Virus record (IMG/VR): IMGVR_UViG_3300042561_000572 | Coordinates: 30,156 to 94,155 of that record | DNA length: 64,000 nt | Reading direction: 5' to 3' (one strand) | From: a virus | Part shown: positions 884-38,735 of the stretch, one piece after another | Numbering within the stretch: the first letter of the stretch is position 1 | Layout of the letters: each line of letters opens with the position of its first letter | The notes under the pieces: model-generated | What the model saw: only the letters and a program-made list of their open reading frames with translations | Databases searched by the model: none | Told to the model about the DNA's origin: nothing | Position numbers and translations under genes: made by a program

Positions 884-1088
884 ATACAACTTTACCTAAT
901 TCATAGTCAAATACTCTCCATCTAAGACTTCTTTTAAATTTAAAAGTATGAAGTCTATTATCATGAGCCATTTCTATAATACTTATGAAGTAATCTAAAT
1001 CATTAGTTATTTTAAAAGTACCTTTATCAATAACCCAATGATTATCTTGTAATGTTTGTATTCTATATCTAATTTTAAACATAAGCAC
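876..1088 (-). CDS. small hypothetical protein
   Basis: 70-aa ORF overlapping the stop of the giant gene. Confidence 0.6.
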   Translation of the reverse strand: MLMFKIRYRIQTLQDNHWVIDKGTFKITNDLDYFISIIEMAHDNRLHTFKFKRSLRWRVFDYELGKVVYE

Positions 1089-10000: not shown

Positions 10001-13000
10001 GCAGGATTACTAATAGCTTGTTTATAAGCCATCTCACCAATCATAGTAGCAAAGATACTAGTAGTATTATCAATACTAGACATCTCAGCAGATTGACCAT
10101 GTTCTAAAACACCAGGTCTATCCCCAAACTTCCAACTAATCTTTCCACCAGTATTATTAGTAAAGTTACTGTTATATATTAACTTACCTTCCTTTTGAAA
10201 GAACACAGGACCAGGTTGATTAGCAGTACCTTGTAACATACCAAGAGTATAAGTAAGCCTACTAGTATTAGTGTTTAAACCTAATAACTTACCAGGCATA
10301 ATAGCAACTTCTAACATAAGAGGAGTGCCAAATCTATCATACTTTCTAGTAATAGACATAGCATCCCCTAACCCTTTACTCATCTCCCTTAAAGTACTTT
10401 CTAACTTTAAAAGATCACCAGTATTAGATTGTCTAGCCCAGTATGGTAAACCTTCAATGGAGGGTAACAAACCATTATCTAACCTATTACCATAGTTAAG
10501 TTGAGCATAAGACATAGTTACAGCCTTATTATTATCTTTTAACTCATACATTTCTTCTTCTGCTAATAAAGAATATTCATTACTAAAGCCTAAGTTTAAA
10601 GCCTCAATGTTATCTCTAAAGTCTTGGTCATAGCCAGTATTACTTTCCTTAGCAGCATCAATGAATAACTTTCTATTAACATAAACAGCACCCATTTCAT
10701 CACTAACATATGGATCATTACCTCCAACACCAAGATACTTATTATCAGGTCTAATATCAACACCTAATGAGTTCATACTAAAGTTAGAAGAGTTAGCAGC
10801 AGTACCAGCTATTTGCTGAGTATATTTAACATATGTACTACCATCTTTTCTTGTTGCTGATTCATATCTATAAGCACTAAAAGACTTACTATGTTGTCTA
10901 GGAACATCAGCACCAGCCATATTACCACTAGCAATAGCAAGCATTTGTAATGCAGTTAAGTTCTTACCATCAGTAATATCTAATTGAGCATTAATAAGTT
11001 CAACCTTTCTATTTAGTGATTGATTACTCTCTGTTACAGCATTAACAAAGCCACTAATAGAGCCACTAAATTCATTATGAAACCTAGCACCAAACCTATC
11101 ATTTAAATAATTCCAAGTAGGTTCTATGACCTGTTTAGTAAAGTTATTAGTATCAACTACAACCTTACTAATACCCATTGCTATCAAACTAAAGTTCTTT
11201 CTTTGTATGTCTCTATACAATTCATATCTAACATCTTGTCTTGATCTAAACTGACCACTTCCAAGAGTATTGGAACTAAATTTACCCATTTCACCAATCT
11301 CTTGACTGGTAGCATCATTAAATCTATTAGCTCTATTATTAGGATCACTACCATTAACATCTAAATGATTAACATGTAATAAGTATGCTTGATCAAGCAC
11401 CATAGTCATACCTAAATCACCAGTATATTTACCCTTTAATTCGTCTAAACTACTATTCATTTCTCTACCACTTTCAGTGTGTAAATAGTCAACAGTAGCC
11501 TTCAATGTATACATAATATCAGTTGCAAACTTAATATTAGATTGACTACTTATAGTTGTTATTTGTTGTTTTTGAGCAGCAACAACTTGTTCATACATAA
11601 GAGCAGATACAGTCTTCTTATATTTATTAACCTTATTATCATTTAACTTTTGAGGATCAAACTTACCTAATAACAAATTAAGTTGTGCTAACCCAGAGAA
11701 GTCTTTAAAAGATGTCCAATTATTTAATAGTTCTGGTAACCTGTTAATATATTCTTGTCTCTTTTTAATTAAATCCTTATTACTATGAAACATGCCTAAC
11801 ATTTCATAGTTGGAGCCAGCTTTAAATATAGAATCACCAACAGGACTAGTTAAGTTAATAGAGCCTAACACAGCAACCTGATCTGTTATATAAACCTTTC
11901 TATGATGAGCAGGGCCAGCAAGCTTAATGTTAAACACACCAGGAACCCCATCTTTACCATTAACAATCTCTTCTGCTTCTTGTCTAGTTTTTTTCTTGCT
12001 ATTAACAAGTTCATTGATAATAGTTTCTTTTAACTTCTCCATCTTTGCAACTTCAAGTATATTAGGCCCAAAGATAGCAGCACTAGTACCTTCATCACCT
12101 GGAATAGGAGAACCAACAATCATATTAACTTTAAAGCCATAGTTCTCATTACCTATGATTTCTCTATAGATCTTACTAACAACAACATCACTAATAGCTC
12201 TATTTTGATATTGGAAAGTATCAATTGTAATGCTTTCTTTAGCAGATTCAAACATAGAAACAAATGGTAATATACCAGGTCTAGTTTGATACTTAACATC
12301 ATCAATCACTTTAGCTGCTTTTTGTTTATAACTATTGTTAATACTAGTATCAATAGCTTTAATGTTTCTTCTATTTATACTAACACCACCCTTAGTTAAC
12401 TCATTAACATAAGACTTACTTCTAACAAAGTCTAAGTCAGTAATAGTCTTACCAGCTTTACTTCTACTACTATTAAAAGTACCTTCATTAATTGCTCTAA
12501 GCTCATCTGCTGAGTTACCATCAACAGGAACAAGACCACTACCAAATAGATCAGCATTAACTAATCTCTCTAATGTCTCTTGTCCTCTAGCTTCCATATC
12601 TCTAATATTAGAACTAGATTGAACACGACTAAAAGCATTAGCATACTGATAGCTTTGATCTAAGTAATAATTATCTTTAGCTTTAGTAGGATCTTCAATG
12701 TATAAACCTTTTTTAGCTAAAACATTACCAAATATATTTTCAAATACCACTTGACTAGCATAAGCTTTAGTCTCAGTAGGATCAATTCTATAAGCTTCAC
12801 CAACTAAGAACTTAAGACTCTTTCTACTATCTAATAAGCTATTAGAAACATTACTATCAAACTCAGTAAACAGTCTAGTAGTAACAGTTTGACTAAGACC
12901 TAATACAAACTTATTAGAGAATGCTTCTCTTTTACCAGTAGTAGTAACATGTTTAGGATCAAACATACCACCTGATATATCACTAGTCATACCAATAGCA

Positions 13001-13182
13001 TTTTGCCAATCACTATTAGTTGAGCCTAACTCATTAGTAAAGACTTCACTGTTATACAAACCATAACCAACAGAAGTTGCAAGAGCACTTCTATTACCTT
13101 GTTCTATAAAACCATGAAGACTACTAACAGATTGTCTTCTATGTTCTAAATGATATTCAGTGTTTGAGAAATAACTTGACAT
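1075..13182 (-). CDS. giant multidomain virion protein: PLD(HKD) domains + single-chain two-barrel RNA polymerase + tape-measure-like C-terminus
   Basis: HRKVYITD...GSINL (aa ~427); beta-like GGYSD, LQPGSGRRH...FKGV and DVYGLINP; beta-prime-like GHGTEFEG...MP, RSAP and NLGDFDGD (aa 2894-2898, nt 4489-4503); hydrophobic Gly/Ala segments near the C-terminus. Confidence 0.8.
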   Translation of the reverse strand: MSSYFSNTEYHLEHRRQSVSSLHGFIEQGNRSALATSVGYGLYNSEVFTNELGSTNSDWQNAIGMTSDISGGMFDPKHVTTTGKREAFSNKFVLGLSQTVTTRLFTEFDSNVSNSLLDSRKSLKFLVGEAYRIDPTETKAYASQVVFENIFGNVLAKKGLYIEDPTKAKDNYYLDQSYQYANAFSRVQSSSNIRDMEARGQETLERLVNADLFGSGLVPVDGNSADELRAINEGTFNSSRSKAGKTITDLDFVRSKSYVNELTKGGVSINRRNIKAIDTSINNSYKQKAAKVIDDVKYQTRPGILPFVSMFESAKESITIDTFQYQNRAISDVVVSKIYREIIGNENYGFKVNMIVGSPIPGDEGTSAAIFGPNILEVAKMEKLKETIINELVNSKKKTRQEAEEIVNGKDGVPGVFNIKLAGPAHHRKVYITDQVAVLGSINLTSPVGDSIFKAGSNYEMLGMFHSNKDLIKKRQEYINRLPELLNNWTSFKDFSGLAQLNLLLGKFDPQKLNDNKVNKYKKTVSALMYEQVVAAQKQQITTISSQSNIKFATDIMYTLKATVDYLHTESGREMNSSLDELKGKYTGDLGMTMVLDQAYLLHVNHLDVNGSDPNNRANRFNDATSQEIGEMGKFSSNTLGSGQFRSRQDVRYELYRDIQRKNFSLIAMGISKVVVDTNNFTKQVIEPTWNYLNDRFGARFHNEFSGSISGFVNAVTESNQSLNRKVELINAQLDITDGKNLTALQMLAIASGNMAGADVPRQHSKSFSAYRYESATRKDGSTYVKYTQQIAGTAANSSNFSMNSLGVDIRPDNKYLGVGGNDPYVSDEMGAVYVNRKLFIDAAKESNTGYDQDFRDNIEALNLGFSNEYSLLAEEEMYELKDNNKAVTMSYAQLNYGNRLDNGLLPSIEGLPYWARQSNTGDLLKLESTLREMSKGLGDAMSITRKYDRFGTPLMLEVAIMPGKLLGLNTNTSRLTYTLGMLQGTANQPGPVFFQKEGKLIYNSNFTNNTGGKISWKFGDRPGVLEHGQSAEMSSIDNTTSIFATMIGEMAYKQAISNPASKLIGVDADTKRGLALDFAISLMGDTRYMLADNKVGINTDGLAYSNNLFDRGRSNNLFDRGGYKDLANALESRFNAEGISYLDTTRQLAGVDVYNRLNVNVNVEGTKFGIKLTDQIQNIRNAKSGDDVFTAIHAIGQLLGQEGYQDLTLDVLRVNSKYNAERDLNSQMTELSKTIFDPYLQAHQAISYAAGVPASKYINYGLDAGNERAMSLLNIADVSKNPLLQTLQYARTFARDVSVYSGFGTDYEGNERFYLGGVAEGVSTQNKKGYQLESFGVRNKFPTDRNSIDILEGTGIGVLISKDKLVNSGDFKDSEVDEIMTLLNVKGNQRGMLFNLDPSKPAQINQRIKNALGSRLMYEVSEEASKTILEKGSLKEYNAGQRKGIADNIAQLTSLLTDDKAKKFIHNYLTAEEVNLGSMFDTDVRTVLNESAYNFVLAQRKELFDKFKDLNLSETEREDTNQILNNMFRMKMISYSSVANSVGSVVGGRRDKQQFVLLQLNGGYSDHFYTNPKFRTQHYAGMPTVTNTGIKASMLDARTHVGEVTFSGDMLQKNGLVINEGDTFVYDRSVNKVVQIRADGGDNVTYVGGTGSADYLIGQIENFSLFGKPVASVKQKSISNRPGEDSVHLILTAGRVEGGSPGTNEIKYQVSALPILQPGSGRRHEGTAAGLLFKGVGAALKGSQFEGVFSSFMKSLGYESTFKDDMGAIKTVEAGISSASILKNQVSDVYGLINPNNLKSGFFMDHASMLFTKDVTGPDGVRTKLANTLVKQTNRMLAAALISQFGLDIIADGSYERNKPGDALMLNDQYVKAYKKAAIKGEFGTFIRMAEMQNVLTGKATRSKDNIFGSIPQFIMNNKELVGSIRDAILTDSGDLTGLLQGYVNTVGSRSGDGYVINSSDLYTRGVSAMLTAIDMFGQLKNQRGDISMVTDWMLKMKVRQNDGTTGKFNDDSFIGPLKTSPLSEIGALTRAATPNAVTGNYDAYSGVVLNDPLLEIAAALGGSDNAFNMTNEEKEQLANQMGIYLQQNYAVQLSLSISPSASKDPLGKNLRAKTEMQHLLAPLEAQSKQFTRTGNKGNLAYVLGTVVAAQEIGLISVGMADSAEYLKSIQAIQALDPVTMSGFFGRDFLGVYYNANENSSELIKEYRTIYKPSIKKNFDVSKVEDYYNNGDLTLAEATYVDGLNRDKHNSDPTAKLTDYAGQLRRVGQHIIEALRKSAITYNLEQSKGMGTDITQPKLQMLQDTGNRTYNILMPKVVGGPLVDQMTGDVNTVFSNTQNTYIFMPGADLLNQVGSSFGDFVSDIVGKTLNMQSYFVPGTAENDVMIKVAKARAAQKNSATFNVNLSPEETDMIARLGYLGDELLQAISEASSDTLMQKAVAGHGTEFEGYVSTGIPNLSLAANMNVMPQFVNEKYGAPEGIASLRKKLFEVTAAAHLTYTTLGSEMSTKFKNYQSNKQLQDFNQSLGTVLDYQKQMLVRGISTMAALKLQNGVEVIGGAHNLLNQVQTGKTTDINDLDAAVEKAQNSFNTVKKNLDVTGAYDKAYVASYVLANLQFAKLKADTKLAENSLNPKKREEYKGLIGTVNDWMSERGYQDAIYLGKNHEIRDFIHNSTMKNRYSMGLDLVNHYSKELEGAMRGKHTVYKQTHQSITDLINDTADPKTGGNFEAARQITLEYIDNRIKNLENFMEGFAPTSTKNAKSEQEHFIVAANRKSVGYMINDMTNIKEQVAAYKDQGGTLSTKFLHYSLQELGYIHNSMSELDNMQNQSWRSAPYGSTESHLATLMAIRGVDQFNKMIDNLAIDDNIVRFDVDRSKSISIFSGLSFLTSNLGDFDGDNYMTLLHKVTEKINTIDDRRFVIEHKKKEISSMKAFVGPISDTEALSKLEKTLANEEAKLFEDAMALKSLQKDMNAPDKQSKMAKDVASYMGIDSRFFRGSNEGGFRSQGTINVSSMAAMLDQGKGLYGGMQGVNSEMNTRVEDLLNASLGSKHSVGLTFDKNTLDDMIKSIETGSDKNQFFTAIGMTLNSTQLQDTDMQQELQEALTNSMRLTWDELKQSSNTLHNFEGEVNKEAYFTTLFSKLDATSKASNVLYSKINAGLGIGMGESTYDVLTKTLGEAGSDVLGKTYNTLLGTFVADSPIVSLYHILEGDSPQIAEKMNRMTGQHGPVNNASNSVVMPSDEGTRFMANLQASYDKAQQLQGWNKAVQQMLRDSIKLKGDSSSVMAELIKMSEEYTTADESKRQSLVNDMASKIGPGAGMKGLMDLNKMIHAAGSTGERKDGEGRYGSIGDYNITGDQRDIGMALMGSDVNEDSLIKFKVSSSLRSITTMFNFEKNFGSLEIGKDGKLKIDDKASSNRALEKTISEGLHGFLGKGSDSKGVSLTLAELAMGNKADAVKAVEGLYNAIDGINSRGVGFSTRASGYSVGYVSEQHRDKAVVEQVNRFSAEMITNSNGAFGTMLYEHMGMAMTDDNMAKLNEVRQSSGGLSTASLLVLSHHASITQTKTFMGDYGSGLDRFVHLNKASKDMQRNITSSSVREVGTSLLGGDLFNAAYRLMAQGKLSMEGASVMGRLFKAVNDPKLTNADAMGQMMSNFSGDEENAKEMAEMYKHLKHVEIQHEVTIDGKVERKNELVSDLINRQSKKTSQGFKLQAISEVAAAMNQAGEISDVTYNKIHAQIVGQHKNINKNEAEAKALADELLAENGLLLGTLSKEGKDYFKPEHVARGNDGTTRQELKVKAADGIFNIVGPALLSMIGGAIYGTSNDQAGMDAAGVIGGTLSLMGYNMPHGKGAANAAGALFRSKAYRNPDEDWATNLAKAASTEASLSLVGTYVTPKLTDLFNRNVVAPLFRHNVPIAESGVSAIIGSFVGALAMNMLDSSIQQSAGLLKSNFNQGDNNLNNKLAQMQDNLSDAIAARGEAEIDPMSSDFIDVPDKLDVPPVVVGVWATDVEFENLSSDSRSETYLVSGDSAYV
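9817..9867. repeat. in-frame tandem duplication with 27-nt period (SNNLFDRG x2)
   Basis: acccctatcaaacaagttattaga occurs twice, separated by tct. Confidence 0.9.
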
Positions 13183-13349: not shown

Positions 13350-13751
13350 ATGTCCACAGCATCAACAGTATTTGAAATTCCTCTTCCTTCTGGTAAAGTT
13401 ATCTCTTTTAGACTTCCTACATACAGAGATAGACAAGCAGCAGTTAAGAGATTTAGACAACAACAAAATGAAGTAGGTTGGTCAATTGAAGAGTTTTTAG
13501 CATTTGGTATGCTTGAATTTGTAGATGGACTGCCTTTGCAAGCTGGTCTTGACCCTATTGATCAAGTATCTGAATGGTCATTGAAAGATGTAAATATTTA
13601 TCTAGAAGTATTTATGCCCTTAGTATTTCCTGATGATGTTGCTAAGCAAAGAGCACAAGACATGGTTAAGGCACTTCTTGAGGGAAAGTCAGTAGTGAAA
13701 CAAGTGGCCTCACCTATTACTTCAGCCCCTACTACAGCTATAACCGCATAA
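13350..13751 (+). CDS. tail assembly chaperone (lambda gpG-like)
   Basis: FEIPLPSGKVISFRLPT N-terminus typical of tail/hub assembly chaperones; contains in-frame G GGA AAG slippery site. Confidence 0.75.
   Translation: MSTASTVFEIPLPSGKVISFRLPTYRDRQAAVKRFRQQQNEVGWSIEEFLAFGMLEFVDGLPLQAGLDPIDQVSEWSLKDVNIYLEVFMPLVFPDDVAKQRAQDMVKALLEGKSVVKQVASPITSAPTTAITA
13682..13688 (+). promoter_or_regulatory. programmed -1 ribosomal frameshift site GGGAAAG
   Basis: GAG GGA AAG in frame; the -1 frame is open from here into ORF 13769..14179; same heptamer as lambda G-T. Confidence 0.8.
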
Positions 13752-13768
13752 CAGATGTTGCAATATCG

Positions 13769-14179
13769 TTGGCAGTATTATATAAACTGCCAATGGTAAC
13801 AACTAGAAAGTGTATATATAACTATGACTCTAACTATCCTGAAAAGTATTATAGAGACATACCAATATCAGAAGATTTAATATTATTAAGAGAGTTAACG
13901 TTTGAGGGTTATGCCAATCACTTCATAGAAGCATACAACTTAAATAACTACATACAAATTAGTGGCACTATACAGATACCCTATGGTAATGACTGGCTAG
14001 ACTTAGATGAAGTTGAGAGAAGAGCATTTGAAATTGTAGTTAACAAAGTAAACATTGAAAGACACAAGGCAGCTCAAGCAGAAAAAGAAGAACTAAAGAA
14101 AAACCTTCAATCTTCAACTCAAAATCATTCTAGGTCAATGTTTGATGGTATACCAATGTCTAGTATAAGTATGAGATAA
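13769..14179 (+). CDS. C-terminal part of frameshifted tail chaperone (gpT-like)
   Basis: Weak TTG start; in the -1 frame of the upstream gene; WLDLDEVERRAF resembles gpT/T4 gp51-like motifs. Confidence 0.7.
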   Translation: MAVLYKLPMVTTRKCIYNYDSNYPEKYYRDIPISEDLILLRELTFEGYANHFIEAYNLNNYIQISGTIQIPYGNDWLDLDEVERRAFEIVVNKVNIERHKAAQAEKEELKKNLQSSTQNHSRSMFDGIPMSSISMR

Positions 14180-16188: not shown

Positions 16189-16199
16189 ATACAATTTAA

Positions 16200-16259
16200 A
16201 TATAAACAATAAAAAACAACATTAGATATACTTCCAATGTTGTTTTTTATTGTTTATAT
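16200..16259. terminator. bidirectional terminator
   Basis: 24-bp inverted repeat between convergent genes. Confidence 0.7.
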
Positions 16260-16273
16260 ATATATATATATAA

Positions 16274-22310: not shown

Positions 22311-22381
22311 CCTCTAAAAGATACACTTAAGTCTAAACCAAGTATCTTTTAAAAACTGGGTTACGGTCCTTCATAATCTAG

Positions 22382-22443
22382 TTTACAAAAGATACATAAT
22401 AGAATATAATAAAGGGAGTAAACAACTACTCCCTTTATTTTTT
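22382..22443 (+). promoter_or_regulatory. sigma70-like promoter overlapping a terminator hairpin upstream of GIY-YIG gene
   Basis: TTTACA-17-TATAAT (22382-22410); inverted repeat aataaagggagta / tactccctttatt (22408-22439) plus T-tract before ATG. Confidence 0.6.
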
Positions 22444-23301
22444 ATGAGAAACAAATTATCTGGTATATATTCTTTTACAAATAAAACAACTGGTAAAAGA
22501 TATATTGGACAAACAGTATATTTAAATGGTAGAAAAGGAGATCATTTATTAAATCTTAGAAGGAATCAACATGATAATGATTATCTTCAAAAAGCTTTTA
22601 ATAAATATGGTGAAAAAGACTTTATATTTGAAGTGTTAGAAGTGGTGCCAAAGTTAGAAGATGGTACTAATGATAAAGTTAAATTAACTGAAAGAGAGCA
22701 GTACTGGATGGATTTTTATAAGTCTTATGATAGAGATTATGGTTATAATATTAATCCTTCAGCAAGTATGAATCCAATGCAGGGTAAAACACATACCCCA
22801 GAAGCTAGAAAGAAGATTAGTGAAGCAGCTTATAATAGACCTCCTAGAAAAGTAATTTTACCTACATATATTCCTAATCCTGATATTAAAGATAGTATAG
22901 ACAGTAAATTTGAATATACTGTAGAACATATTAATGGTAATACATATATTTTAGATGATAATAGTTTTATAGATTTTTGCAGACAATTACATTTAGATGA
23001 TGCTAGATTATTTAGATGTTTATACTTTAAAGAGTTTTATTATGGATTAAAAGGCTCTATAAAAGTATTAAATAAGTGGGGAGAATATCATATACATCAG
23101 TGTAATACTCAACAGAAAAACGCCGTAGTATATAGATATTATTTAAAAGATGAAACTGGAACAGAACATATAACTGATAATCTAAATAATTTTTGTAGGA
23201 TTAATAGATTAAGCAGAACACATATGGGAAATGTAGTAAATAAAAACAAATACTATAAAGGATGGACTGGTTATAAAGTTTCTCTAAAAGATATAAAATA
23301 A
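22444..23301 (+). mobile_element. free-standing GIY-YIG homing endonuclease with NUMOD3-like motif
   Basis: SGIYSFTNKTTGKRYIGQT, LTEREQYW, GYN and NPMQGKTHTPEARKKISEA. Confidence 0.9.
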
Positions 23302-23350
23302 ATAATAAAAAGAGGTTAGATTTTATTTTCTAACCTCTTTTTATTATTTA
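23299..23350. terminator. bidirectional terminator
   Basis: 22-bp perfect inverted repeat between convergent genes. Confidence 0.75.
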
Positions 23351-27618: not shown

Positions 27619-28276
27619 AGTATGTATCAGTATTGCTAAAGGTATTGCAAGTCATCCTCTTATACTTGCAAATCTAATAGTTAATCCAATAACAAATGAA
27701 CCTGTACCAATTTCAAGTTATAGATTATATGGTGGATTAGAGACATCATCTAACACTTTAACATGTGCTGTATATCCAGCACCTATATCATCATTAACTG
27801 CAAAATCAGCATCATCACAAACAGCATCTATTGTATATAAACCTTACAACTTAGGTAGTGAAACTGATGAAGTAATGTCAATGATACATATTAGTTTTTA
27901 CTTTAATAGTGTTACCTCTGGCTCTCAATCAACCCCTTTAATTCTAGAAAATATGCCTACACAATTACCTATTAGTAATGATGAAATAGTAATAGAAAAT
28001 AGCACAAATATAGAATTATATACAGATGTAGCTTTACATATATTAAGTCAATGTATTGAGTTATTAAGACTAATAATATATGAAATTAAAATAGATGACT
28101 TAAAGACTAAAGTAGAACTACTAAGATCATCATTTATTGGAGGTGAGTGGGAAAAAGATCCATACTTTAAAGAGGTAATGACAGCTTGTTTAGTTACCAC
28201 TTATCTACCAAAAGCAGCAAAAACAAATCCAATAATACAAGATATAAAATATAACATAAACAATGAGAATTCCTGA
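27602..28276 (+). CDS. putative tail terminator/neck protein
   Basis: Overlaps both neighbours and lies directly before sheath. Confidence 0.45.
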   Translation: MHGVDKVCISIAKGIASHPLILANLIVNPITNEPVPISSYRLYGGLETSSNTLTCAVYPAPISSLTAKSASSQTASIVYKPYNLGSETDEVMSMIHISFYFNSVTSGSQSTPLILENMPTQLPISNDEIVIENSTNIELYTDVALHILSQCIELLRLIIYEIKIDDLKTKVELLRSSFIGGEWEKDPYFKEVMTACLVTTYLPKAAKTNPIIQDIKYNINNENS

Positions 28277-31025
28277 AGTTATTTTTAATGAGACACCCTC
28301 TTTAGGAGCCCCAATAAACACTACTGTTTCTAATAGAGTTGCTATTGTAGGTGAGTTTACAAAAGGACCAACTAATACTATTTTACTATCAGAGTTTAAA
28401 GACTTTGCAAGGATATATGGTTATGATACTGGTACTGCAAACTTATCCTTTCAAGCAGCATATGATCAAGGTGCTAGAGAATTTGGAATTAAAAGAGTAA
28501 TTGGTCAAGCAGTTCCCCCAAAAATTGATTTATTAATTAGTGGTATTGCTACAAAACAAAACAATTTAACAGTTAACTTAAAGTTTGTTGGACAACCAAT
28601 AAGCACAGCAACTAGTTATATTGAAACATTTATTAGTTCTAGTGGTAGTTATACTGGTACAACTGATAAAAGATATTTGTTTAAAGTTACCCAAGGTCCT
28701 ATTACACTTAATGCTACTTATAATCAAGCAACAGCAGCTTCCACTATTACTACATCAATTGCTAATGCAGCTAAAGTAGTAATTGGCTCTAAGATTGCAA
28801 GTGCAGAATCTAATGTATTAACTACCCCAACAACTACCACTATAACAGCAGTTAATCCTCTAACTGGAGTTATTACTTTATCAGCTCCTTTAGTAACAGG
28901 AGTAGCGGGTTATGGTGAGTTTACACTTACTAATAAAGCAACATTAAAGTGGGTTGTATTACCCATTAATCAATACCCATTTGCAACTAATCTACCTACT
29001 GTTAATTGGGGGGATGATAGTGCTGATATTCCTACTTATGTTAATACACTTGGTACAACAGTTACAGGTGCAGTATTAGGAAGTGCTTTAGATCTAACAA
29101 CTGATGCAGGTATTTATAAAGTAATAGCTGAAGGTATATCTATTAGATTTAGTGTAACAGGAGTACCAATTGAAGTATATCCTGGAGAACAATTTACATT
29201 AAGAGTTAACTCTGCTGAGTATTTGATTCCAATTGCAGAAGGAGCAACTTCATCTGATGTTATTAATAACATTCAGGATATTATGGGAGGCATTGCACCT
29301 ATTGGTCTAGTTAAAAGATTAGAAAATGAATTAGGTACATCCTTATTCTTATCAGAAGAAATTGTTAGTCAACCTCTTGAGTTCTTTGACTTAGATGAAC
29401 CTAATAGAGTAACAATTGCAAGTGGTTATAGTTTATGGGTTGATTTAGATGAACCAGATGGACAGGTAGTAGTTACAGGTTCAGCTACAAGTGCATCTAC
29501 ATCACTAACAGTTTCAGATGCAACTAACATTGCAATTGATAGTATTGTATCTGGTACTAGTATTGTTCAAGGCACTACTGTTATTAGTAAAACTGGTAAT
29601 GTATTAACACTATCAGATCCTGTATCAGCAAACATTGTTAGTGGTACTATTACATTCTCTAACTTAAATGGTATTAACTTTAGTAATTATGGATCTCTTA
29701 ATAAGAGTGGATTCTCTGCTACATCTAATAATGCTAGAAATGCATTTGTAACTACTTATTCTTCTGATGGATATCCTTTAGTTAGATTTACTGCTATTAG
29801 TCCTGGTCAATGGGGTAATGGCATCTCATTATCTATCAACAGCATTGGTGCTAGTAGATTTAATGTTGTAATTGAAGATACTAATACTAATACAAATGAT
29901 AAAGAAATTGAATCATTTACAGTTAATCTATTAACGGATGTAGCTGCTGATGGCACAATTAACTCAATTGCATCTTCATATGTTAGAGCTGATTATATTC
30001 CAGTATCAGTTGGTAGTAATCAATTTCCTGCTCAAATAGTAAATAGAACTCCTCAAAGATTAGCACCTGCTAATCCTTTTATAACTACAGTAACAGACAT
30101 TAGACATATTAGTTATGTAGGTAATAACAAGTTATCTAACATCTTCTTAAAGAGAGGTTATGATGGCCCAGTTCCAACTGAAACTGATTACATTAATGCT
30201 GTTAATTCACTCTCACAAGAAAGAGTTAACTTTATTGTAGTAGCTAATGAATTGGGAGCTAGAACAGCAGTAAGACAAGCACAATTATCAGTTGCTGGTA
30301 ATAGTGGTGAACTAGAGGGTAGAAAGATTGCAATCCTAACATCTACTAGAAACTTAACAGCAGCAAGAGCTAGATTAGAAACAGTTGGTATTAACACTGA
30401 AAGAGGTGTTTATGTTGCAGGTTGGGCTACATATAGTGGTGGTATTGGAGCTAGTAGATTCTCTATTCCTTTAAGTGTATTTTATGCTGGTAAGTTAGGT
30501 TATATATCAGAGAACCTTAGTCCTAATGCTAGAACAAGTGCTGGTTCTATTCAAGGAATCATTGAAACTGATCTAGATCAATACAAATCTATTAGTTCTA
30601 AACAACAATTTATAGATACTAAAGTTGACATGATTTCAATTGATCCTGCATTATCTGGTTACTTTGTAGTACAAGGTAGAACACTAACTGATATTACTGG
30701 TAAAGATAGAATTAACTTAGTTAGAATTAATGACAAGATTAGAAGAGATCTATTCTTTAACCTACAAAGTTATAAAGGTGAAACCAATTCTAAAGTAGTT
30801 AGAACACAGATTGCATCTGCTATATCTGCTTATATGAGTACTCTTGCTAGAAGTGGTTATATTACTAGTTATAACCAACCAGTCATTGATGAAACAAATA
30901 ATCCATCTAGTGCATATTACACAGGTACATTAAACATATCTTTAAGTTATAGTCCCATATATCCTATAGATGCAATAGTGATTACTTTAACCAGAGATGT
31001 GTCTGGTAATGTTTCAGTAGCTTAA
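28263..31025 (+). CDS. contractile tail sheath protein
   Basis: VAIVGEFTKGP, FARIYG, FTAISPGQWGN, GYDG, INLVRI, FNLQSYKGETN, IDETNNP and YSPIYPIDAIVITL. Confidence 0.92.
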   Translation: MRIPEVIFNETPSLGAPINTTVSNRVAIVGEFTKGPTNTILLSEFKDFARIYGYDTGTANLSFQAAYDQGAREFGIKRVIGQAVPPKIDLLISGIATKQNNLTVNLKFVGQPISTATSYIETFISSSGSYTGTTDKRYLFKVTQGPITLNATYNQATAASTITTSIANAAKVVIGSKIASAESNVLTTPTTTTITAVNPLTGVITLSAPLVTGVAGYGEFTLTNKATLKWVVLPINQYPFATNLPTVNWGDDSADIPTYVNTLGTTVTGAVLGSALDLTTDAGIYKVIAEGISIRFSVTGVPIEVYPGEQFTLRVNSAEYLIPIAEGATSSDVINNIQDIMGGIAPIGLVKRLENELGTSLFLSEEIVSQPLEFFDLDEPNRVTIASGYSLWVDLDEPDGQVVVTGSATSASTSLTVSDATNIAIDSIVSGTSIVQGTTVISKTGNVLTLSDPVSANIVSGTITFSNLNGINFSNYGSLNKSGFSATSNNARNAFVTTYSSDGYPLVRFTAISPGQWGNGISLSINSIGASRFNVVIEDTNTNTNDKEIESFTVNLLTDVAADGTINSIASSYVRADYIPVSVGSNQFPAQIVNRTPQRLAPANPFITTVTDIRHISYVGNNKLSNIFLKRGYDGPVPTETDYINAVNSLSQERVNFIVVANELGARTAVRQAQLSVAGNSGELEGRKIAILTSTRNLTAARARLETVGINTERGVYVAGWATYSGGIGASRFSIPLSVFYAGKLGYISENLSPNARTSAGSIQGIIETDLDQYKSISSKQQFIDTKVDMISIDPALSGYFVVQGRTLTDITGKDRINLVRINDKIRRDLFFNLQSYKGETNSKVVRTQIASAISAYMSTLARSGYITSYNQPVIDETNNPSSAYYTGTLNISLSYSPIYPIDAIVITLTRDVSGNVSVA

Positions 31026-31056: not shown

Positions 31057-31878
31057 ATGTTAGACATTTATAAAGCTCCTGTTAATAATATAGGATTGGA
31101 CCCTATACAAGGTTTTGACATTGCTGCTTGGATGCAAGATTCAGCAAGCGGTCAAATAGCTTTGTTTGGTGACTTTCAATCTATTACATTAACAATTAGA
31201 GATAGTACAGAAACTTATTTACCATTAGGCACCAGATTTCCAGTGTACTTAAATGGTGAAATTCAAATAGCATTTGTTATTGAACAAGGTTTAGTTGATA
31301 TGAACTTCATGCAAAGAACCTTTGGTGTTCAGAACATGGTAAGAGAACAACTTGTTACTAGAGGTCCTAGATTCCAACTTACATTTGATGCTAATGCCTA
31401 TGAACTAAATAAAAATTATGTAGACATTGCTAATGAGAGTGGTAAAGTATCGACTGAAATAAACTATAGAACAGGTGGTACTACTTTTAATCAAATTGTA
31501 GGTGGATCAAATGCTAAATTTGCTAAAAGCAGCTTAGGGGGGTCTGGTAACGAAAAAGTTAATAAAGGTCAAGTTCCTCTTGCACAAGGTAGATATGAAC
31601 TACAAAGATGTAAGATTGACTCTTTATCTGTTGGTATCATGCCTGGTAGAAGAGTTATAGCACAACGTTGGGAAGGAGTAGCAGAAGGTATTAGATTTAT
31701 ACCTGAATCTTTACAAGACTTTAGAAGTAATAATCCTGATAATCCTGGCCCTGCTTTTAGAGGCGGTAATTTAACTAGTGATGGTAGTGGTAATATTAGT
31801 GTTGGGCTTCCAGCTAATACAATTACTAATATTAATAATATTAATACTGGTGGTGGTATTGGTGGTATTTTAGTTTAA
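31057..31878 (+). CDS. tail tube protein
   Basis: Follows sheath; DPIQGF, GDFQSITL, YLPLG...YLNGE, YELQRCKI and WEGVAEGI. Confidence 0.8.
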   Translation: MLDIYKAPVNNIGLDPIQGFDIAAWMQDSASGQIALFGDFQSITLTIRDSTETYLPLGTRFPVYLNGEIQIAFVIEQGLVDMNFMQRTFGVQNMVREQLVTRGPRFQLTFDANAYELNKNYVDIANESGKVSTEINYRTGGTTFNQIVGGSNAKFAKSSLGGSGNEKVNKGQVPLAQGRYELQRCKIDSLSVGIMPGRRVIAQRWEGVAEGIRFIPESLQDFRSNNPDNPGPAFRGGNLTSDGSGNISVGLPANTITNINNINTGGGIGGILV

Positions 31879-31927
31879 TTTTATAACTTATAAAATTAAA
31901 TTAAAAGTTTATATATAAATATATAAA

Positions 31928-31972
31928 TATAATAAAAAGAGTGTTACTATATATTTAGTACACTCTTTTTTA
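31928..31972 (+). terminator. TATAAT plus hairpin and T-tract before tube-paralog cassette
   Basis: aaaaagagtg-t-tacta / tagta-cactcttttt inverted repeat directly preceded by TATAAT and followed by ATG. Confidence 0.6.
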
Positions 31973-32431
31973 ATGAATAATATTAATAATATGTTTGATC
32001 AAATAGCTAAAGAAGTTATCTTATATACAGTTGCACATAACCAACCAGATAAGATCATTGGAACATTTAAAGACATTAGCACTAAAATAAACACTAAATC
32101 AGGAGTGTTATTAGATGGTGAATGTTATATTACATTTCAGCTAAAAGATGGTAATTTAACATTACAAAACTTAAAAGATAAAGTGTTTTACATTACATTT
32201 GATCTTCAAAAGAATGATACAAGATGTGTTTTAAGACTTTGTAAATTAATTGATGATCAATGTAATAATGAAGTATTAGCTGGTAATGCTGATAATATGG
32301 GAAGTATTCCACAATCAATACAAACTTTTAAAGATAACATTGATAAGATAAATAAAGCATTAGAACTAGGAATAGTTAAACTAGATCAATCATTTGAAGA
32401 CTTTAAAACATTAATCAGTAAACAAAAATGA
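31973..32431 (+). CDS. degenerate tail-tube paralog
   Basis: IIGTFKDI, LLDGECYITF, CVLRLCKLID and IPQSIQTF align to the tube protein and to 32428..32874. Confidence 0.6.
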   Translation: MNNINNMFDQIAKEVILYTVAHNQPDKIIGTFKDISTKINTKSGVLLDGECYITFQLKDGNLTLQNLKDKVFYITFDLQKNDTRCVLRLCKLIDDQCNNEVLAGNADNMGSIPQSIQTFKDNIDKINKALELGIVKLDQSFEDFKTLISKQK

Positions 32432-32874
32432 TAGAAACAACAACAAAAGATGTCATTGTTTATACTTTACAAGATGACAACAAGATAAACATTATAGGTG
32501 AGTTTGAAAATATAACTTTATGTGTTAGAACTACTACTAATAATAATATTTACTTAGAAGGTGAAACAAGGGTTGCATTTGTATTATATAAAGGTGTTAT
32601 TAAGTTTAATAATCAAGAACTAAAACCTAATACATTTGTAACAAGAGGCCCAAGATTTAATATTAGTTATGATTCTTATGAAATAAATTTTAATAATAAT
32701 AAAGTTATAGGTGATGTAAAAGGTAGATATGAATTAGGTAGATGTATGATTGATACTACATCTACAGGAGATATAGTTGGTAGAAAAGTTGTAAGTCTTA
32801 GAGTTGAAGGTGTAGCTGAATACATCAAATTCATACCACAAACAGTTGAAGACTTTATTACTAGTAATAAATAA
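32428..32874 (+). CDS. truncated tail-tube paralog
   Basis: GEFENITL, YLEGE, VTRGPRF, GRYELGRC and EGVAEYIKFIP match tube 31057..31878. Confidence 0.85.
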   Translation: MIETTTKDVIVYTLQDDNKINIIGEFENITLCVRTTTNNNIYLEGETRVAFVLYKGVIKFNNQELKPNTFVTRGPRFNISYDSYEINFNNNKVIGDVKGRYELGRCMIDTTSTGDIVGRKVVSLRVEGVAEYIKFIPQTVEDFITSNK

Positions 32875-32893
32875 GCACACAATTACATATCAC

Positions 32894-32929
32894 AAAAGAC
32901 TGTAGTATACTAATACATACAGTCTTTTT
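32894..32929 (+). terminator. intrinsic terminator
   Basis: aaaagactgta / tacagtctttt inverted repeat. Confidence 0.65.
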
Positions 32930-32984: not shown

Positions 32985-35849
32985 ATGTCTAAATTTTACT
33001 CAGATAAAGCGCCAACACCAGTCTTTGCAGTTACATTTGTAAGTAATAGAGATGGTATTATACCTAAAGAAAAAGTACAAACTAGTAGCAAAAGTACTAC
33101 TCCTCAACAAAATGAAGAAGATATTACTAATCCAAACTTTAAATCTAGTGATTATAAAGAGGGAATAGAAGCAGGAGAAAAAGATTTATTAAATAAGATT
33201 GCTTCAATTAAAAAGACTCAAAGGAATAATCCAACACCAGATGAAAAGAAAAGATATGATGAAGCTTTAACTGATTATAGAAAAGCTTTAAGAGAGTTTA
33301 GAGAAAAGAATATGCCAACCTTTTATGGACCTTCTAATTCTTCTACTCCAACTATACCTACCAAAGATAGTGAATACTTAATTTATTCTAATTTACAAAT
33401 ACAAAAAACAGATGATCCAACTGACTTATCACAACAATCTAATTGGTATTTAAGAGAAGCTGAAGTTGAATTAACTAGAGATTGGCCCATTCAAAAGGCC
33501 AAGTTAATTGTAACTTGTAAGCTATTAGATAATGGCTCTATACCACCTTTAGTTGAAGTTGAGAATGGTTTTGTATATGAGAAAAATAATCAGACTCAAG
33601 TGTTTACACCTGTCACTGGAGGGCGCTTCTTATCAGCAGATGATGAAGTGAGAATATATGCTGGTTATAAGAATGATCAATGTATTAGTATGAATGATTT
33701 AGATAAATATCCATTTGATTTTACTAACTTAGAAGCTACAAAACCAATACCACCAATAGTTGAAGCTCAAGTAAAGTTCCTAGAAAAGCAAGTAGTTGCT
33801 ATACAAAATGCTATAGATGCTATAAACAATCCTCTAACAGATCCAACTCTTTATGCAAACATAGGTATTGCTTTACTTCCATTAGGTTTATTACTCTTGC
33901 CAGCAGCAGGACCAGGAGGAGCAGTAGCTACTATTGCTCCAGCTAGTAAAGCTTTAAGTGTTTCAGGTGCTGCTATATCTACAACAGGAACCACAGGAGC
34001 AGCCACAACAGCGTTAGGTTTTCCCATTGGAACAGCAGCAACTTCTACTGCAACAGGAGCTACAAGTACAGCATTAAGTACACAAGTACTTCCTAGAGTA
34101 GCAGCATCTACTATTTCTACGGCTACTAATGCTGCTGCTAGACTACCTACAACAACTGCTGGTTTAGATGCTTTAGCAACTGCTGCTTATAATAAAGCTA
34201 TTGCATCTGGATTAGGTATAACTGCTGCTAGTGTTGTTGCTATTAATACTGTATTAGCAGGATCTGCAAGTGCAGAAGATATAGCTAAACTCTATCCTGA
34301 TAAGATAACTACTAACTATTTAGAAGGTAGAATATATCTAAATGATAATAAAGCTTTAATTGATTCATTAAAAGGAGAAATTACTGCTACTAATAACTTA
34401 ATACAAGTACTACTAAGAAAAGCTGGAGTTGAAACTAAAACATACACAGCAAATCCTAATAAAATAGCACCTATATTCTGGGGCTTTATAGATTCAGTTG
34501 ACTTTATATCTAACTCTAATGCTGGTGTTCAAATTATATACAACTTAAGAGATAGAAGTAGAATATTAGCAGATACTAAACTTGTAACATTACCCTTCCT
34601 AGGAACAGATGCTAATAATAAAAACACATTTGAAGGGTTAAAACATAAGACAGTTGAATCTGTATATAGAGCTACTAATGGTGGTATTTACTTAGATAAT
34701 AGTTATCAAACAGCTTCATCTTTAGCTTGGAGAAGTGGCTTTAATAAAGGGGAAGTTATAAGTTTATATGAAGATATAGATAAGAAGATAATAGATACAA
34801 AGAGTGCATTAGCTAAGGAAAGATTAAAGTATACAGCAGCAATAGAAGATCCTGCTAGATGGGTTATTGCTAATGCATTCTTATCATCTAGTAATATATT
34901 AAATAAGGCAGATTATAATAACCTTGATCCTTTATTTCATATATGGACCTTGCAAGGACCGCTAGTATCAGGTAGTGGTAATAACACTATGCAGATCATA
35001 AACAAGTCACCATTTGAGATATTAAACTATTTAGCAATGACTGAAGTAATGCCTATTGATATATTTACATCACATATCAATGGACACTTTATGTTTGCAC
35101 CAAGAATATTAGATACAACTGGTCTTTATGATGAACAAAGGGGTAATAGATTATACTACTTCTTTGATTGCTTTGATCAATTACCAAATCAAAGAAATTT
35201 AATAAAAGATATAAGAGTACAAACAAGTACAGTTGGTGTTTATAACAGATTTACAGTATTAACAGCAGACTTTGGTAGTTCAACTAATGCTTCATTATCT
35301 GGTCTAACATCTATTGTTGATATAGCATCAGCTAATACTAAAAATAGAAAGGTACCAATTAAACAACATGTAATTGTAGATCCTAAGATAAAAGCTAGTG
35401 AAGGTAACAAAGAAGGAGCAGCACAAGCATTAGCACTTACAACAGCCTCTACAATGGCTAGGGATCACACTATGATTATATTTAAGATTATAGGTGATTC
35501 ATCATTTTATCCAGGAGAAGCTGTAAGAATATTTAATACTGTCCTTCATAGTAAAGGTATATTTACTTTTAATGCTACCTCTACATCATCTGCTGTCTTT
35601 TTAAAGTCCCTATATGATGAAGTTCAAAAGCTATTAAATAGTGCTGTTAAACAAGGAGGTGATAAGAATAAAGTAGTAGATTTAAGTGCTGTAATTGATA
35701 GTATGAGAAGAGTAGCAGGAGCACCTTCAGATGACTTAAATGATGCATTACCCATGTATAAAGTAAGAGGCATAACACATTCATTAAAAGCTAATGGTAA
35801 TGATGCTGGATACACTACAAAGATAGTTGCTGTTGCTGATATTTTATAA
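32985..35849 (+). CDS. baseplate hub protein (T4 gp27/P2 gpD/VgrG-N-like) with large insertion
   Basis: DEVRIYAGY, PIFWGFIDSV, LRDRSRIL, IIGDSSFYPGEAVRI and YKVRGITHSL...GYTTKI. Confidence 0.7.
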   Translation: MSKFYSDKAPTPVFAVTFVSNRDGIIPKEKVQTSSKSTTPQQNEEDITNPNFKSSDYKEGIEAGEKDLLNKIASIKKTQRNNPTPDEKKRYDEALTDYRKALREFREKNMPTFYGPSNSSTPTIPTKDSEYLIYSNLQIQKTDDPTDLSQQSNWYLREAEVELTRDWPIQKAKLIVTCKLLDNGSIPPLVEVENGFVYEKNNQTQVFTPVTGGRFLSADDEVRIYAGYKNDQCISMNDLDKYPFDFTNLEATKPIPPIVEAQVKFLEKQVVAIQNAIDAINNPLTDPTLYANIGIALLPLGLLLLPAAGPGGAVATIAPASKALSVSGAAISTTGTTGAATTALGFPIGTAATSTATGATSTALSTQVLPRVAASTISTATNAAARLPTTTAGLDALATAAYNKAIASGLGITAASVVAINTVLAGSASAEDIAKLYPDKITTNYLEGRIYLNDNKALIDSLKGEITATNNLIQVLLRKAGVETKTYTANPNKIAPIFWGFIDSVDFISNSNAGVQIIYNLRDRSRILADTKLVTLPFLGTDANNKNTFEGLKHKTVESVYRATNGGIYLDNSYQTASSLAWRSGFNKGEVISLYEDIDKKIIDTKSALAKERLKYTAAIEDPARWVIANAFLSSSNILNKADYNNLDPLFHIWTLQGPLVSGSGNNTMQIINKSPFEILNYLAMTEVMPIDIFTSHINGHFMFAPRILDTTGLYDEQRGNRLYYFFDCFDQLPNQRNLIKDIRVQTSTVGVYNRFTVLTADFGSSTNASLSGLTSIVDIASANTKNRKVPIKQHVIVDPKIKASEGNKEGAAQALALTTASTMARDHTMIIFKIIGDSSFYPGEAVRIFNTVLHSKGIFTFNATSTSSAVFLKSLYDEVQKLLNSAVKQGGDKNKVVDLSAVIDSMRRVAGAPSDDLNDALPMYKVRGITHSLKANGNDAGYTTKIVAVADIL

Positions 35850-37160: not shown

Positions 37161-37574
37161 ATGTTAATAATAATACTACATCAAACAAAATCAACAGCAA
37201 AAGAGTTTTTAAACTTTATACCAACAGCACCCTACAGTTATCATGCTTTTATAGATATTACTGGCAATATTACATACTTAGTAGAACCAGTAAGACAAGC
37301 ATTAGCATGTGCTAATTGTTATATAAAAGACATAGAATCAGTTGATAAAGTAGCATATCAAATATGTTTTGAATCCTTAGATGGCGCTTTAACTGAAATA
37401 CAATACATGTCACTTGGTTACTTATTATCTCAATTAGATGTGACTTTAAATCAAGTATATCTACACTCAGAAGTATCATCATCAACTGACTTAAACTTAT
37501 TTAATAAAGACAAAAGTATAAAAGCTTATAACAAGTTTTTACCTAATAAAACTATATATACAGGACTTGAATAA
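37161..37574 (+). CDS. N-acetylmuramoyl-L-alanine amidase (Amidase_2-like)
   Basis: IILHQT, SYHAFIDITG, QICFE, TEIQY and VYLHSEV. Confidence 0.7.
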   Translation: MLIIILHQTKSTAKEFLNFIPTAPYSYHAFIDITGNITYLVEPVRQALACANCYIKDIESVDKVAYQICFESLDGALTEIQYMSLGYLLSQLDVTLNQVYLHSEVSSSTDLNLFNKDKSIKAYNKFLPNKTIYTGLE

Positions 37575-38735
37575 ATGGCAAGAGATAGAGCCTACTATGA
37601 ACAATTACTAACTAATAGTAACGTTGTTGCTTATTTAAATGCTATTAGCAGCATTGAAGCACAGACTTATTACACATTAAATGGAAATACAATATATGTA
37701 CCAACAGGGCCAGAACATCCAGATGTAATAGTACCCCCTGGAACTTCAGCAGCATTTGGTAGATATCAATTTATGCCTGGAACTTGGAATGAAATACAAG
37801 CTGGACTAGGGCCTCTAGATATAAGAAAACCTAGAGATCAAGATATAGCAGCACTATATAGGATGGACACTTTAAGAGGAACACTTGATAATGTTATAGC
37901 TGGTAATTGTATAGCAACTTTAAATAGTAATGCTGGTGAATGGGCAGCATTACCTAAAGCTGATAGTTCTTTTGCATATCCTAATCAAGGAGGACCTCTT
38001 GATGCAGTAGGATTTTGTAAGTTAGTTGATAGTTTAAAAGGTACAACATTACCAAAGGGACCTCTTGTAAATGATAATGTACCTACTGGAACAAGTCCTT
38101 CTAATAACCCTAATAACAATACATTTACCTTTGGTAATACTAACTTTGCAGACATAACATGTCCTCCTATAAAAGAAGAAGATTTATATAGAGCTAACTA
38201 TCAAATAACTAATCCAGGATGTAAGATATCTAGTCCTGTACAACCAATAACAGGATCAAATACTAATAGTGGAACAGTTAATAATGTTAGAGGCACTAAT
38301 AAAGGTGTTGGTTTTTCTGTTAATACACAAGGTTTTGGACAATGTTCAAGTTTAAGAAGTCCTTGTAATTTAAGTAGTGGTGAAGTAGTATTTACATCCG
38401 GTTATGGTTGGAGATGGGGAAGAATGCATAATGGTATTGATTTAGCAGGTCCTATTGGAACTCCCATATATGCTGCTAGTAATGGTAAAGTTATAGATGC
38501 AGCATACCAAGATGGAGGCTATGGTAATAGAGTTGAAATAGTAAGTCCAGAAGGTATTAGAACAACATATAGTCACTTAAATGCTATTAAATGTTCTGTG
38601 GATCAGCAAGTAACAGTAGGACAACAAATAGGTGATATGGGTAGTACTGGCTTTTCAACTGGACCTCATTTACACTTTGAAGTTGATACTGGTAGTGGTT
38701 ATATAGACCCAGAAGACTGTATAAGATTTAGATAA
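37575..38735 (+). CDS. lambda-type lysozyme/transglycosylase fused to M23 peptidase
   Basis: AISSIE...AFGRYQF...QDIAA...EWAALP; GYGWRWGRMHNGIDLA, YSHL and STGPHLHFEV. Confidence 0.9.
   Translation: MARDRAYYEQLLTNSNVVAYLNAISSIEAQTYYTLNGNTIYVPTGPEHPDVIVPPGTSAAFGRYQFMPGTWNEIQAGLGPLDIRKPRDQDIAALYRMDTLRGTLDNVIAGNCIATLNSNAGEWAALPKADSSFAYPNQGGPLDAVGFCKLVDSLKGTTLPKGPLVNDNVPTGTSPSNNPNNNTFTFGNTNFADITCPPIKEEDLYRANYQITNPGCKISSPVQPITGSNTNSGTVNNVRGTNKGVGFSVNTQGFGQCSSLRSPCNLSSGEVVFTSGYGWRWGRMHNGIDLAGPIGTPIYAASNGKVIDAAYQDGGYGNRVEIVSPEGIRTTYSHLNAIKCSVDQQVTVGQQIGDMGSTGFSTGPHLHFEVDTGSGYIDPEDCIRFR

What the first reader, a model, noticed from the sequence alone, without database searches (positions are those of the whole stretch)
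31874..32929. Hairpin-bounded cassette of two truncated tail-tube mimics
Seen: 32428..32874 aligns with the true tube (GEFENITL/GDFQSITL, VTRGPRF identical, GRYELGRC/GRYELQRC, EGVAEYIKFIP/EGVAEGIRFIP). It lacks the N-terminal arm, most of the ETYLPLGTRFPV loop, the internal loop and the C-terminal tail. 31973..32431 is a more eroded copy. The pair has its own TATAAT and flanking hairpins. Known: the N-arm and beta-hairpin loop mediate tube ring stacking, and some defence systems (e.g. DSR2) are triggered by tail tube protein. Inference: non-polymerising tube copies acting as immune decoys, as poisons of competitor tail assembly, or as length/assembly regulators.
Basis: partly seen in the sequence, partly recalled or inferred. 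Interest (0 to 1): 0.75.

Follow-up and report, generated by a model that had tools for sequence, protein, structure and literature searches.

The report
Variable array of short tail-tube paralogs
A freshwater jumbo phage carries two small, well-conserved extra copies of its tail-tube protein between the tube gene and the next tail gene. Close relatives carry zero, two or three such copies, so they are optional tail-tube-fold proteins whose job (extra tail rings, assembly control or immune decoy) is still open.

Summary
ORF2 (32428-32874, 148 aa) is a clear paralog of the 273-aa tube (BLASTP 30% identity, E 5e-28). ORF1 (31973-32431, 152 aa) is a more distant one. Two terminator-like hairpins flank the pair.

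The framing needs correction:
- Neither copy is eroded. Both belong to conserved families and give confident tube-fold models.
- At about 150 aa they are the size of ordinary tube proteins. The resident tube is the enlarged one.
- In a family tree they fall outside the clade of all long tubes, so they look old rather than recently truncated.
- The "own TATAAT" is chance-level and lies in the terminator's A-rich arm.

New here: there are three classes of short paralog (A, B, C). Related phages carry B-C, A-B-C, C-A or none. The complete Ma-LMM01 genome has only the tube.

ORF1 combines a tube-like barrel with two C-terminal helices, the layout of known tube initiators. My best reading (about 0.4) is minor hexameric tube-fold rings at the tube-baseplate junction, made at attenuated levels. 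The decoy idea is untested (about 0.17).

This scan has also noted short tube paralogs in other phages.

The parts
28263..31025 (+). Tail sheath gene (920 aa); context.
   Evidence: PF17482 E 1.3e-7 and phrog_30392 'tail sheath' E 4.5e-86.
31057..31878 (+). Main tail tube gene (273 aa). It is an enlarged tube, with an N-arm, a 47-aa insert and a low-complexity C-tail.
31934..31970 (+). Upstream hairpin: an intrinsic-terminator-like A-run, stem and T-run that ends 2 nt before the ORF1 ATG.
   Evidence: Fold -20.5 kcal/mol, z -3.8. Conserved in L007, L017 and L019. The same type occurs after other genes of the window.
31973..32431 (+). ORF1, a class B short tube paralog (152 aa): tube-like beta core plus two C-terminal helices.
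32428..32874 (+). ORF2, a class C short tube paralog (148 aa): a minimal complete tube domain. Its ATG overlaps the ORF1 stop (ATGA).
   Evidence: E 5e-28 against the tube. Its family has 20 clusters at 62-100% identity, plus divergent members at 32-46%. The AF2 model has pLDDT 79.8. Fold hits are almost all tail tube or Hcp proteins.
32894..32928 (+). Downstream hairpin, intrinsic-terminator-like.
   Evidence: Fold -18.2 kcal/mol, z -4.4. Conserved together with the preceding GCACACAAT in L007 and L017.
32985..35849 (+). 954-aa tail protein (hub-like or TMP-like), homolog of Ma-LMM01 gp093; downstream neighbour.
   Evidence: phrog_34291 E 1.5e-34. Atlas feature hits include GpP-like/NMB1110 hub families at score 0.91, which is a lead only. 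It has no Pfam or PDB sequence match.

Best explanation
ORF1 and ORF2 are functional minor tail proteins with the tail-tube fold. They most likely form hexameric rings that join the tube at its baseplate end, as tube initiator and spacer rings do in other contractile tails.

Shown:
- Both are expressed-type genes under constraint.
- Both have the tube fold.
- They are translationally coupled (ATGA overlap).
- They lie in the late tail operon between the tube gene and the hub-like gene.
- They follow a terminator placed after the tube gene.

Inferred:
- Read-through of that terminator yields far fewer copies of them than of the tube.
- Each forms one ring.
- The set of rings is optional and exchangeable between related phages (0, 2 or 3 genes).
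For: Homology to the tube. Tube fold for both models, with hits almost exclusively among tail tube, Hcp and CIS tube chains, including baseplate-resident ones such as 6j0n_n and 7kh1_A1.

Conservation: 20 and 15 clusters, dN/dS 0.64 and 0.20, and GC3 equal to that of neighbouring genes.

Same strand, no detectable promoter of their own, and overlapping start/stop codons in all three cassette-bearing loci.

ORF1 is a barrel plus two C-terminal helices. That matches the published architecture of tube initiators: Pam3 gp17 in PMC9942802 and Mu gp43 in PMC11915804.

T4 and phiKZ place two tube-fold rings between hub and tube (PMC13250141), so two or three paralogs is a familiar number.

The paralogs are ancient relative to the long tubes, as expected for specialised ring proteins.
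Against: Relatives with collinear tail modules lack the cassette entirely: L019-L022 (sheath 77% identical), L032-L034 (68%) and the Ma-LMM01 type. An all-class profile finds only the tube in the complete Ma-LMM01 genome. A ring needed for tail assembly should not be optional.

The order and content of the array vary (B-C, A-B-C, C-A), which is unusual for core structural genes.

ORF2 evolves fast (dN/dS 0.64), and about half of its family has lost a 10-residue hairpin.

There are no virion proteomics or structures for this lineage. No structural match was obtained for ORF1's helical part.
Confidence: 0.4

Rival explanations
1. Immune decoys or sponges. The short tube-fold proteins are not built into virions. 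They bind host sensors that recognise free tube protein (DSR2- or Avs16-type) without activating them, and so shield the real tube during late expression.
For: Presence is patchy and copy number varies among close relatives, which is typical of accessory and counter-defence genes. ORF2 evolves fast and has an indel polymorphism. The genes are co-expressed with the tube in the same operon. Tube protein is a known immune trigger: Avs16 contacts the tube beta-hairpin (PMC13581612), and DSR2-tube complexes are in the PDB.
Against: No sensor or binding test is available. ORF1 is under strong constraint (dN/dS 0.20) and carries an initiator-like helical domain that a decoy does not need. The paralogs are ancient. 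The top Foldseek hits to DSR2 complexes only reflect that the SPR tube was solved in those entries. I know of no described tube-fold decoy (own knowledge).
Confidence: 0.17
2. Assembly regulators. The short paralogs bind tube monomers or tube ends, as cap-like or chaperone-like factors. They would prevent premature polymerisation or tune tail assembly, and then leave, occupying the slot where tail assembly chaperones usually lie.
For: They sit directly after the tube gene. ORF2 retains the tube's most conserved C-terminal motif, EGVAE-I-FIP, which suggests a shared interface. No canonical chaperone gene lies at this site in any relative.
Against: The fold is a tube fold, not that of known chaperones. 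There is no canonical slippery heptamer at the ORF1/ORF2 junction, only a run of five A in a 7-nt open stretch. A candidate frameshift chaperone pair lies elsewhere, with GGGAAAG at 13681-13687. Relatives assemble tails without the cassette.
Confidence: 0.15
3. Poisons of competitor tails. The paralogs would be incomplete tube subunits that cap or derail tube growth of co-infecting related phages.
For: Only the absence of the tube's conserved N-terminal arm in classes B and C and the patchy distribution.
Against: They would also poison the resident tube, which is their closest relative. There is no evidence of a discrimination mechanism. Translational coupling and strong conservation of ORF1 are not explained.
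Confidence: 0.05
4. Decaying pseudogene copies of the tube gene.
For: They are shorter than the resident tube and have low identity to it.
Against: The frames are intact in 20 and 15 protein clusters. dN/dS is below 1. The folds are confident. Codon usage is native. They branch outside the tube clade.
Confidence: 0.01

Closest known systems
Tube initiator and spacer rings of contractile tails (T4 gp54/gp48, phiKZ gp88/gp182, Pam3 gp17, Mu gp43)
   Same: Small proteins with a tube-like beta-barrel. One to two kinds occur per tail, as old paralogs of the tube. Pam3 gp17 and Mu gp43 add a C-terminal helical domain, as ORF1 does.
   Different: Those proteins are fixed parts of their tails. Here the genes are absent from close relatives, and their number and order vary. 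There is no LysM domain, and location in the virion has not been shown.
Second tube proteins of extracellular contractile injection systems (Afp5/Pvc5-type, beside Afp1/Pvc1)
   Same: Roughly 150-aa tube paralogs encoded in the same operon as the main tube. PVC and AFP tube chains appear among the fold hits.
   Different: In those systems the main tube is equally small and the paralog is a constant component (own knowledge). Here the main tube is 273 aa and the short copies are optional.
Ma-LMM01 gp092 (Fukuivirus tail tube, phrog_34837)
   Same: Same protein family as the window's tube and, more distantly, as ORF2: 27% identity, E 1e-14.
   Different: Ma-LMM01 has only this one family member in its complete genome.
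DSAD1-type inhibitors of tube-sensing defence (DSR2)
   Same: Only the proposed outcome is shared: blocking a sensor that recognises tube protein.
   Different: As far as I know DSAD1 is not a tube homolog (own knowledge). Nothing here tests binding to any sensor.

Membership tests
Tail tube / Hcp fold superfamily | Beta-sandwich/barrel core with a long beta-hairpin, structurally similar to solved tubes | tested here: met
Tail tube / Hcp fold superfamily | Sequence homology to a bona fide tube protein | tested here: met
   ORF2 against the tube, E 5e-28. ORF1 against ORF2, E 5e-8. Profile hits for all classes.
Tail tube / Hcp fold superfamily | Assembly into hexameric rings that stack | not testable with these tools
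It needs multimer modelling or biochemistry.
Tube initiator (Pam3 gp17 / Mu gp43 type) | Tube-like barrel followed by a C-terminal helical (or LysM) domain | tested here: inconclusive
   ORF1 has the barrel plus helices 116-131 and 139-150. No structural match covers the helices. ORF2 has only one short terminal helix.
Tube initiator (Pam3 gp17 / Mu gp43 type) | Constant component, present in all related tails | tested here: not met
   Absent from L019-L022, L032-L034 and the complete Ma-LMM01 genome.
Tube initiator (Pam3 gp17 / Mu gp43 type) | Gene adjacent to the hub gene | tested here: inconclusive
   The cassette lies directly upstream of the 954-aa protein. The hub identity of that protein is only a feature-based lead, with no Pfam or PDB sequence hit.
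Tail assembly chaperone G/GT | Programmed -1 frameshift at a slippery heptamer joining two ORFs | tested here: not met
   ORF2 is in the -1 frame of ORF1, but that frame opens only 6 nt before its ATG. The junction AAACAAAAATGA has no X XXY YYZ site.
Tail assembly chaperone G/GT | Chaperone fold rather than tube fold | tested here: not met
   Both models are tube folds.
Moron (autonomous promoter-gene-terminator insert) | Own promoter and foreign base composition | tested here: not met
   No sigma-70-like site lies on the + strand in 31879-31972. TATAAT is at chance level. GC3 is 0.13 and 0.11, against 0.11-0.15 in neighbouring genes. A downstream terminator is present.

The most novel reading that the evidence does not exclude
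The cassette is an exchangeable array of ancient tube mimics that never enter the virion. Each class keeps a different subset of the tube's surface: class A the N-arm motif and the MPGRRV hairpin, class C the VTRGPRF and EGVAE-I-FIP motifs, class B the bare core. Together they would soak up host sensors that detect free tube protein. This would be the first tube-fold anti-defence decoy family.
Probability: 0.17. Interest if true: 0.8.

Novelty: new variant of a known kind. Interest (0 to 1): 0.4.

Why it matters
Tube-fold minor proteins are a standard part of contractile tails, so the existence of paralogs is not surprising. The unusual point is that a set of three old, conserved classes behaves as an optional and reshuffled array among phages whose tail modules are otherwise collinear.

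If they are tail rings, the tube-baseplate junction can gain or lose whole rings, which bears on how tail architecture evolves. If they are not in the virion, they would be a new class of structural-protein mimics acting in assembly control or counter-defence. That is relevant now that tube proteins are known immune triggers.

The families currently have no Pfam model and no functional annotation.

Tried and rejected
- Tube-ORF2 pair prediction: no verdict (score 0.00 against a mark of 0.32; controls not run). This is not evidence either way.
- Expression from public RNA runs: contigs from three metatranscriptomes cover only conserved sheath and tube parts of relatives, plus the start of the 954-aa gene in one run. 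Contigs cannot rank expression, and a part without cover proves nothing.
The contexts of most database homologs, including 224-kb and 257-kb contigs, could therefore not be read.
- Metagenome and GTDB genome scans found no further loci. A first GTDB attempt with A3 failed for lack of conserved columns.
- Sequence profiles against the PDB gave nothing for the tube family or for the 954-aa protein. Pfam gave nothing for the tube or either ORF.
- hhalign of the tube profile against the 168-aa, 343-aa, 224-aa and 954-aa tail proteins found no hidden tube domain. A conserved initiator elsewhere could be neither found nor excluded.
- The Atlas gave no usable hit for ORF1.
- P0038, a 3594-aa repeat adhesin in the representative search, is a spurious repeat-driven hit.
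- Recent foreign origin is rejected, because GC3 matches the neighbouring genes.
- Recent duplication of the resident tube is rejected by the tree. Long branches make the deep order unsure.

Full report
**Setting**

The window is part of a 94-kb IMG/VR virus record, estimated 56% complete. It has about 30% G+C. Lake-water metagenomes hold it in full, and a third lake sample holds near-identical contigs.

Its structural module is related to that of Microcystis phage Ma-LMM01. The gene order, all on the + strand, is:
- a 224-aa homolog of Ma-LMM01 gp090 (called tail terminator in bioRxiv 10.1101/2024.12.13.628456);
- the 920-aa sheath (PF17482, phrog_30392);
- the 273-aa tube (phrog_34837, the gp092 family);
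- ORF1;
- ORF2;
- a 954-aa protein (phrog_34291, the gp093 family);
- a 395-aa baseplate or spike-like protein;
- an amidase;
- an M23 peptidase;
- further baseplate genes, including a Baseplate_J protein.

**Observation**

ORF1 is more distant: E 5e-8 to ORF2, 0.007 to the tube and 3e-13 to a class-C profile.

Both flanking hairpins fold far better than shuffled sequence. They have the A-run, stem and T-run form of intrinsic terminators. The same form recurs after the capsid gene, after a homing-endonuclease gene and at a convergent gene pair.

The TATAAT at 31928 is not evidence of a promoter:
- The hexamer occurs 166 times in the window, fewer than in shuffles.
- No -35/-10 pair lies on the + strand in the spacer.
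- The hexamer abuts the hairpin as part of its A-rich arm. The same arrangement is seen at 22405 and 23302, and in locus L019.

**The genes are alive**

- ORF2's family has 20 clusters at 62-100% identity and 138-159 aa, plus divergent members at 32-46% identity.
- ORF1's family has 15 clusters at 77-100% identity.
- Against the nearest relative with DNA (L007, sheath 96% identical), dN/dS is 0.20 for ORF1 and 0.64 for ORF2. For comparison it is 0.37 for the tube and 0.16 for the sheath.
- Third-position G+C matches the neighbouring genes.
- Pseudogene decay is therefore excluded.

**They are whole tube domains, not stumps**

The resident 273-aa tube is the enlarged member. It has an N-terminal arm that is conserved among long tubes, a variable 47-aa insert and a low-complexity tail.

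ORF2 keeps a long hairpin, strands 20-35 and 47-60. Some family members have a hairpin loop up to 13 residues longer. So a short loop is not a family trait.

ORF1 adds two C-terminal helices (116-131 and 139-150).

**Three classes and a variable array**

Related loci reveal a third class, A: L007 5101-5562 and L017 6279-6719, which are 45% identical to each other. Class B is ORF1 and class C is ORF2.

| Locus | Sheath identity to window | Array between tube and next gene |
|---|---|---|
| window | - | B-C |
| L007 | 96% | A-B-C |
| L017/L018 | 80% | C-A |
| L019-L022 | 77% | none; two terminator hairpins about 120 nt apart |
| L032-L034 | 68% | none; one terminator |
| Ma-LMM01-like | 34% | none |

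The sheath tree places L032 outside an unresolved trio of L017, L019 and (window, L007). The L019 state therefore reads either as loss of the cassette or as an empty site.

An all-class profile finds a single family member in the complete Ma-LMM01 genome and in the cassette-less contigs.

Adjacent paralogs overlap by 4 or 8 nt in every array, which suggests translational coupling.

**Age**

In a maximum-likelihood tree all long tubes form one clade (support 92/98), and classes A, B and C fall outside it. The short genes are therefore not recent truncated copies of the resident tube. Branches are long and the deep order is unresolved.

**Interpretation**

The literature read here shows that contractile tails place one or two tube-fold rings between hub and tube: T4 and phiKZ (PMC13250141), Pam3 gp17 (PMC9942802) and Mu gp43 (PMC11915804). 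Initiators of the Pam3 and Mu type are a tube-like barrel plus a C-terminal helical domain.

Several features fit minor ring proteins made at lower levels than the tube:
- ORF1 has that same layout.
- The genes are in the late tail operon and are translationally coupled.
- They lie behind a terminator that would attenuate them relative to the tube.
- They are ancient paralogs.

I give this reading about 0.4.

Its main weakness is that close relatives with collinear tail modules do without the cassette, and that its content and order vary. That pattern is what accessory genes look like. Tube proteins are indeed sensed by bacterial immunity: Avs16 contacts the tube hairpin (PMC13581612), and DSR2-tube complexes exist. 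Nothing here tests binding to any sensor.

**Limits**

- The complex prediction gave no verdict.
- RNA contigs are uninformative.
- The identity of the 954-aa neighbour as hub or tape measure is only a lead.

Earlier notes of this scan describe short tube paralogs in other phages. They are unchecked and were not used as evidence.

Noticed in passing
L019:5736-5982 (also L020-L022): At the same site between tube and the next gene, this cassette-less relative has two similar terminator hairpins (AAAAAGCTGTG...CACAGCTTTTTT). They flank about 120 nt of non-coding spacer. This looks like an emptied or never-filled cassette site.
   Followed up: partly
window 32985-35849: The 954-aa protein after the cassette has conserved N- and C-terminal parts and a variable middle. 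Relatives range from 623 to 954 aa. Atlas features point to GpP-like/NMB1110 baseplate-hub families (a lead only). If it is the hub, no tape-measure gene lies between tube and hub in this lineage.
   Followed up: partly
window 13350-14179: A 133-aa ORF upstream of the portal gene contains GGGAAAG at 13681-13687 and is followed by a 136-aa ORF. The only family hit is phrog_32670, of unknown function.
   Followed up: partly
window 22444-23301: A GIY-YIG/HNH-type homing endonuclease ORF (phrog_314, E 1.9e-25) sits just after the major capsid gene (phrog_30785). Strong terminator hairpins lie on both sides of it.
   Followed up: no
window 16189-16273, 22311-22443, 23302-23347, 31934-31970, 32894-32928: There is a recurrent terminator design: an A-rich arm (often ATAATAAAAAG), a 9-12-bp stem, a loop and a T-run. 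It is used after highly expressed structural genes.
   Followed up: partly
ORF2 residues 112-121 (window 32761-32790): A 10-residue hairpin (STGDIVGRKV) is present in about half of the class C family and cleanly absent in the other half, including L007. The matching MPGRRV hairpin is nearly invariant in true tubes and in class A.
   Followed up: partly
window 37161-38735: An amidase_2-like 137-aa protein and an M23 peptidase (386 aa) lie directly after the spike-like gene. This suggests two wall-degrading activities carried by the tail.
   Followed up: no
window 1075-13182 (- strand): A single 4035-aa ORF lies on the opposite strand. Earlier notes propose a PLD-RNA polymerase fusion. It was not examined here.
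   Followed up: no
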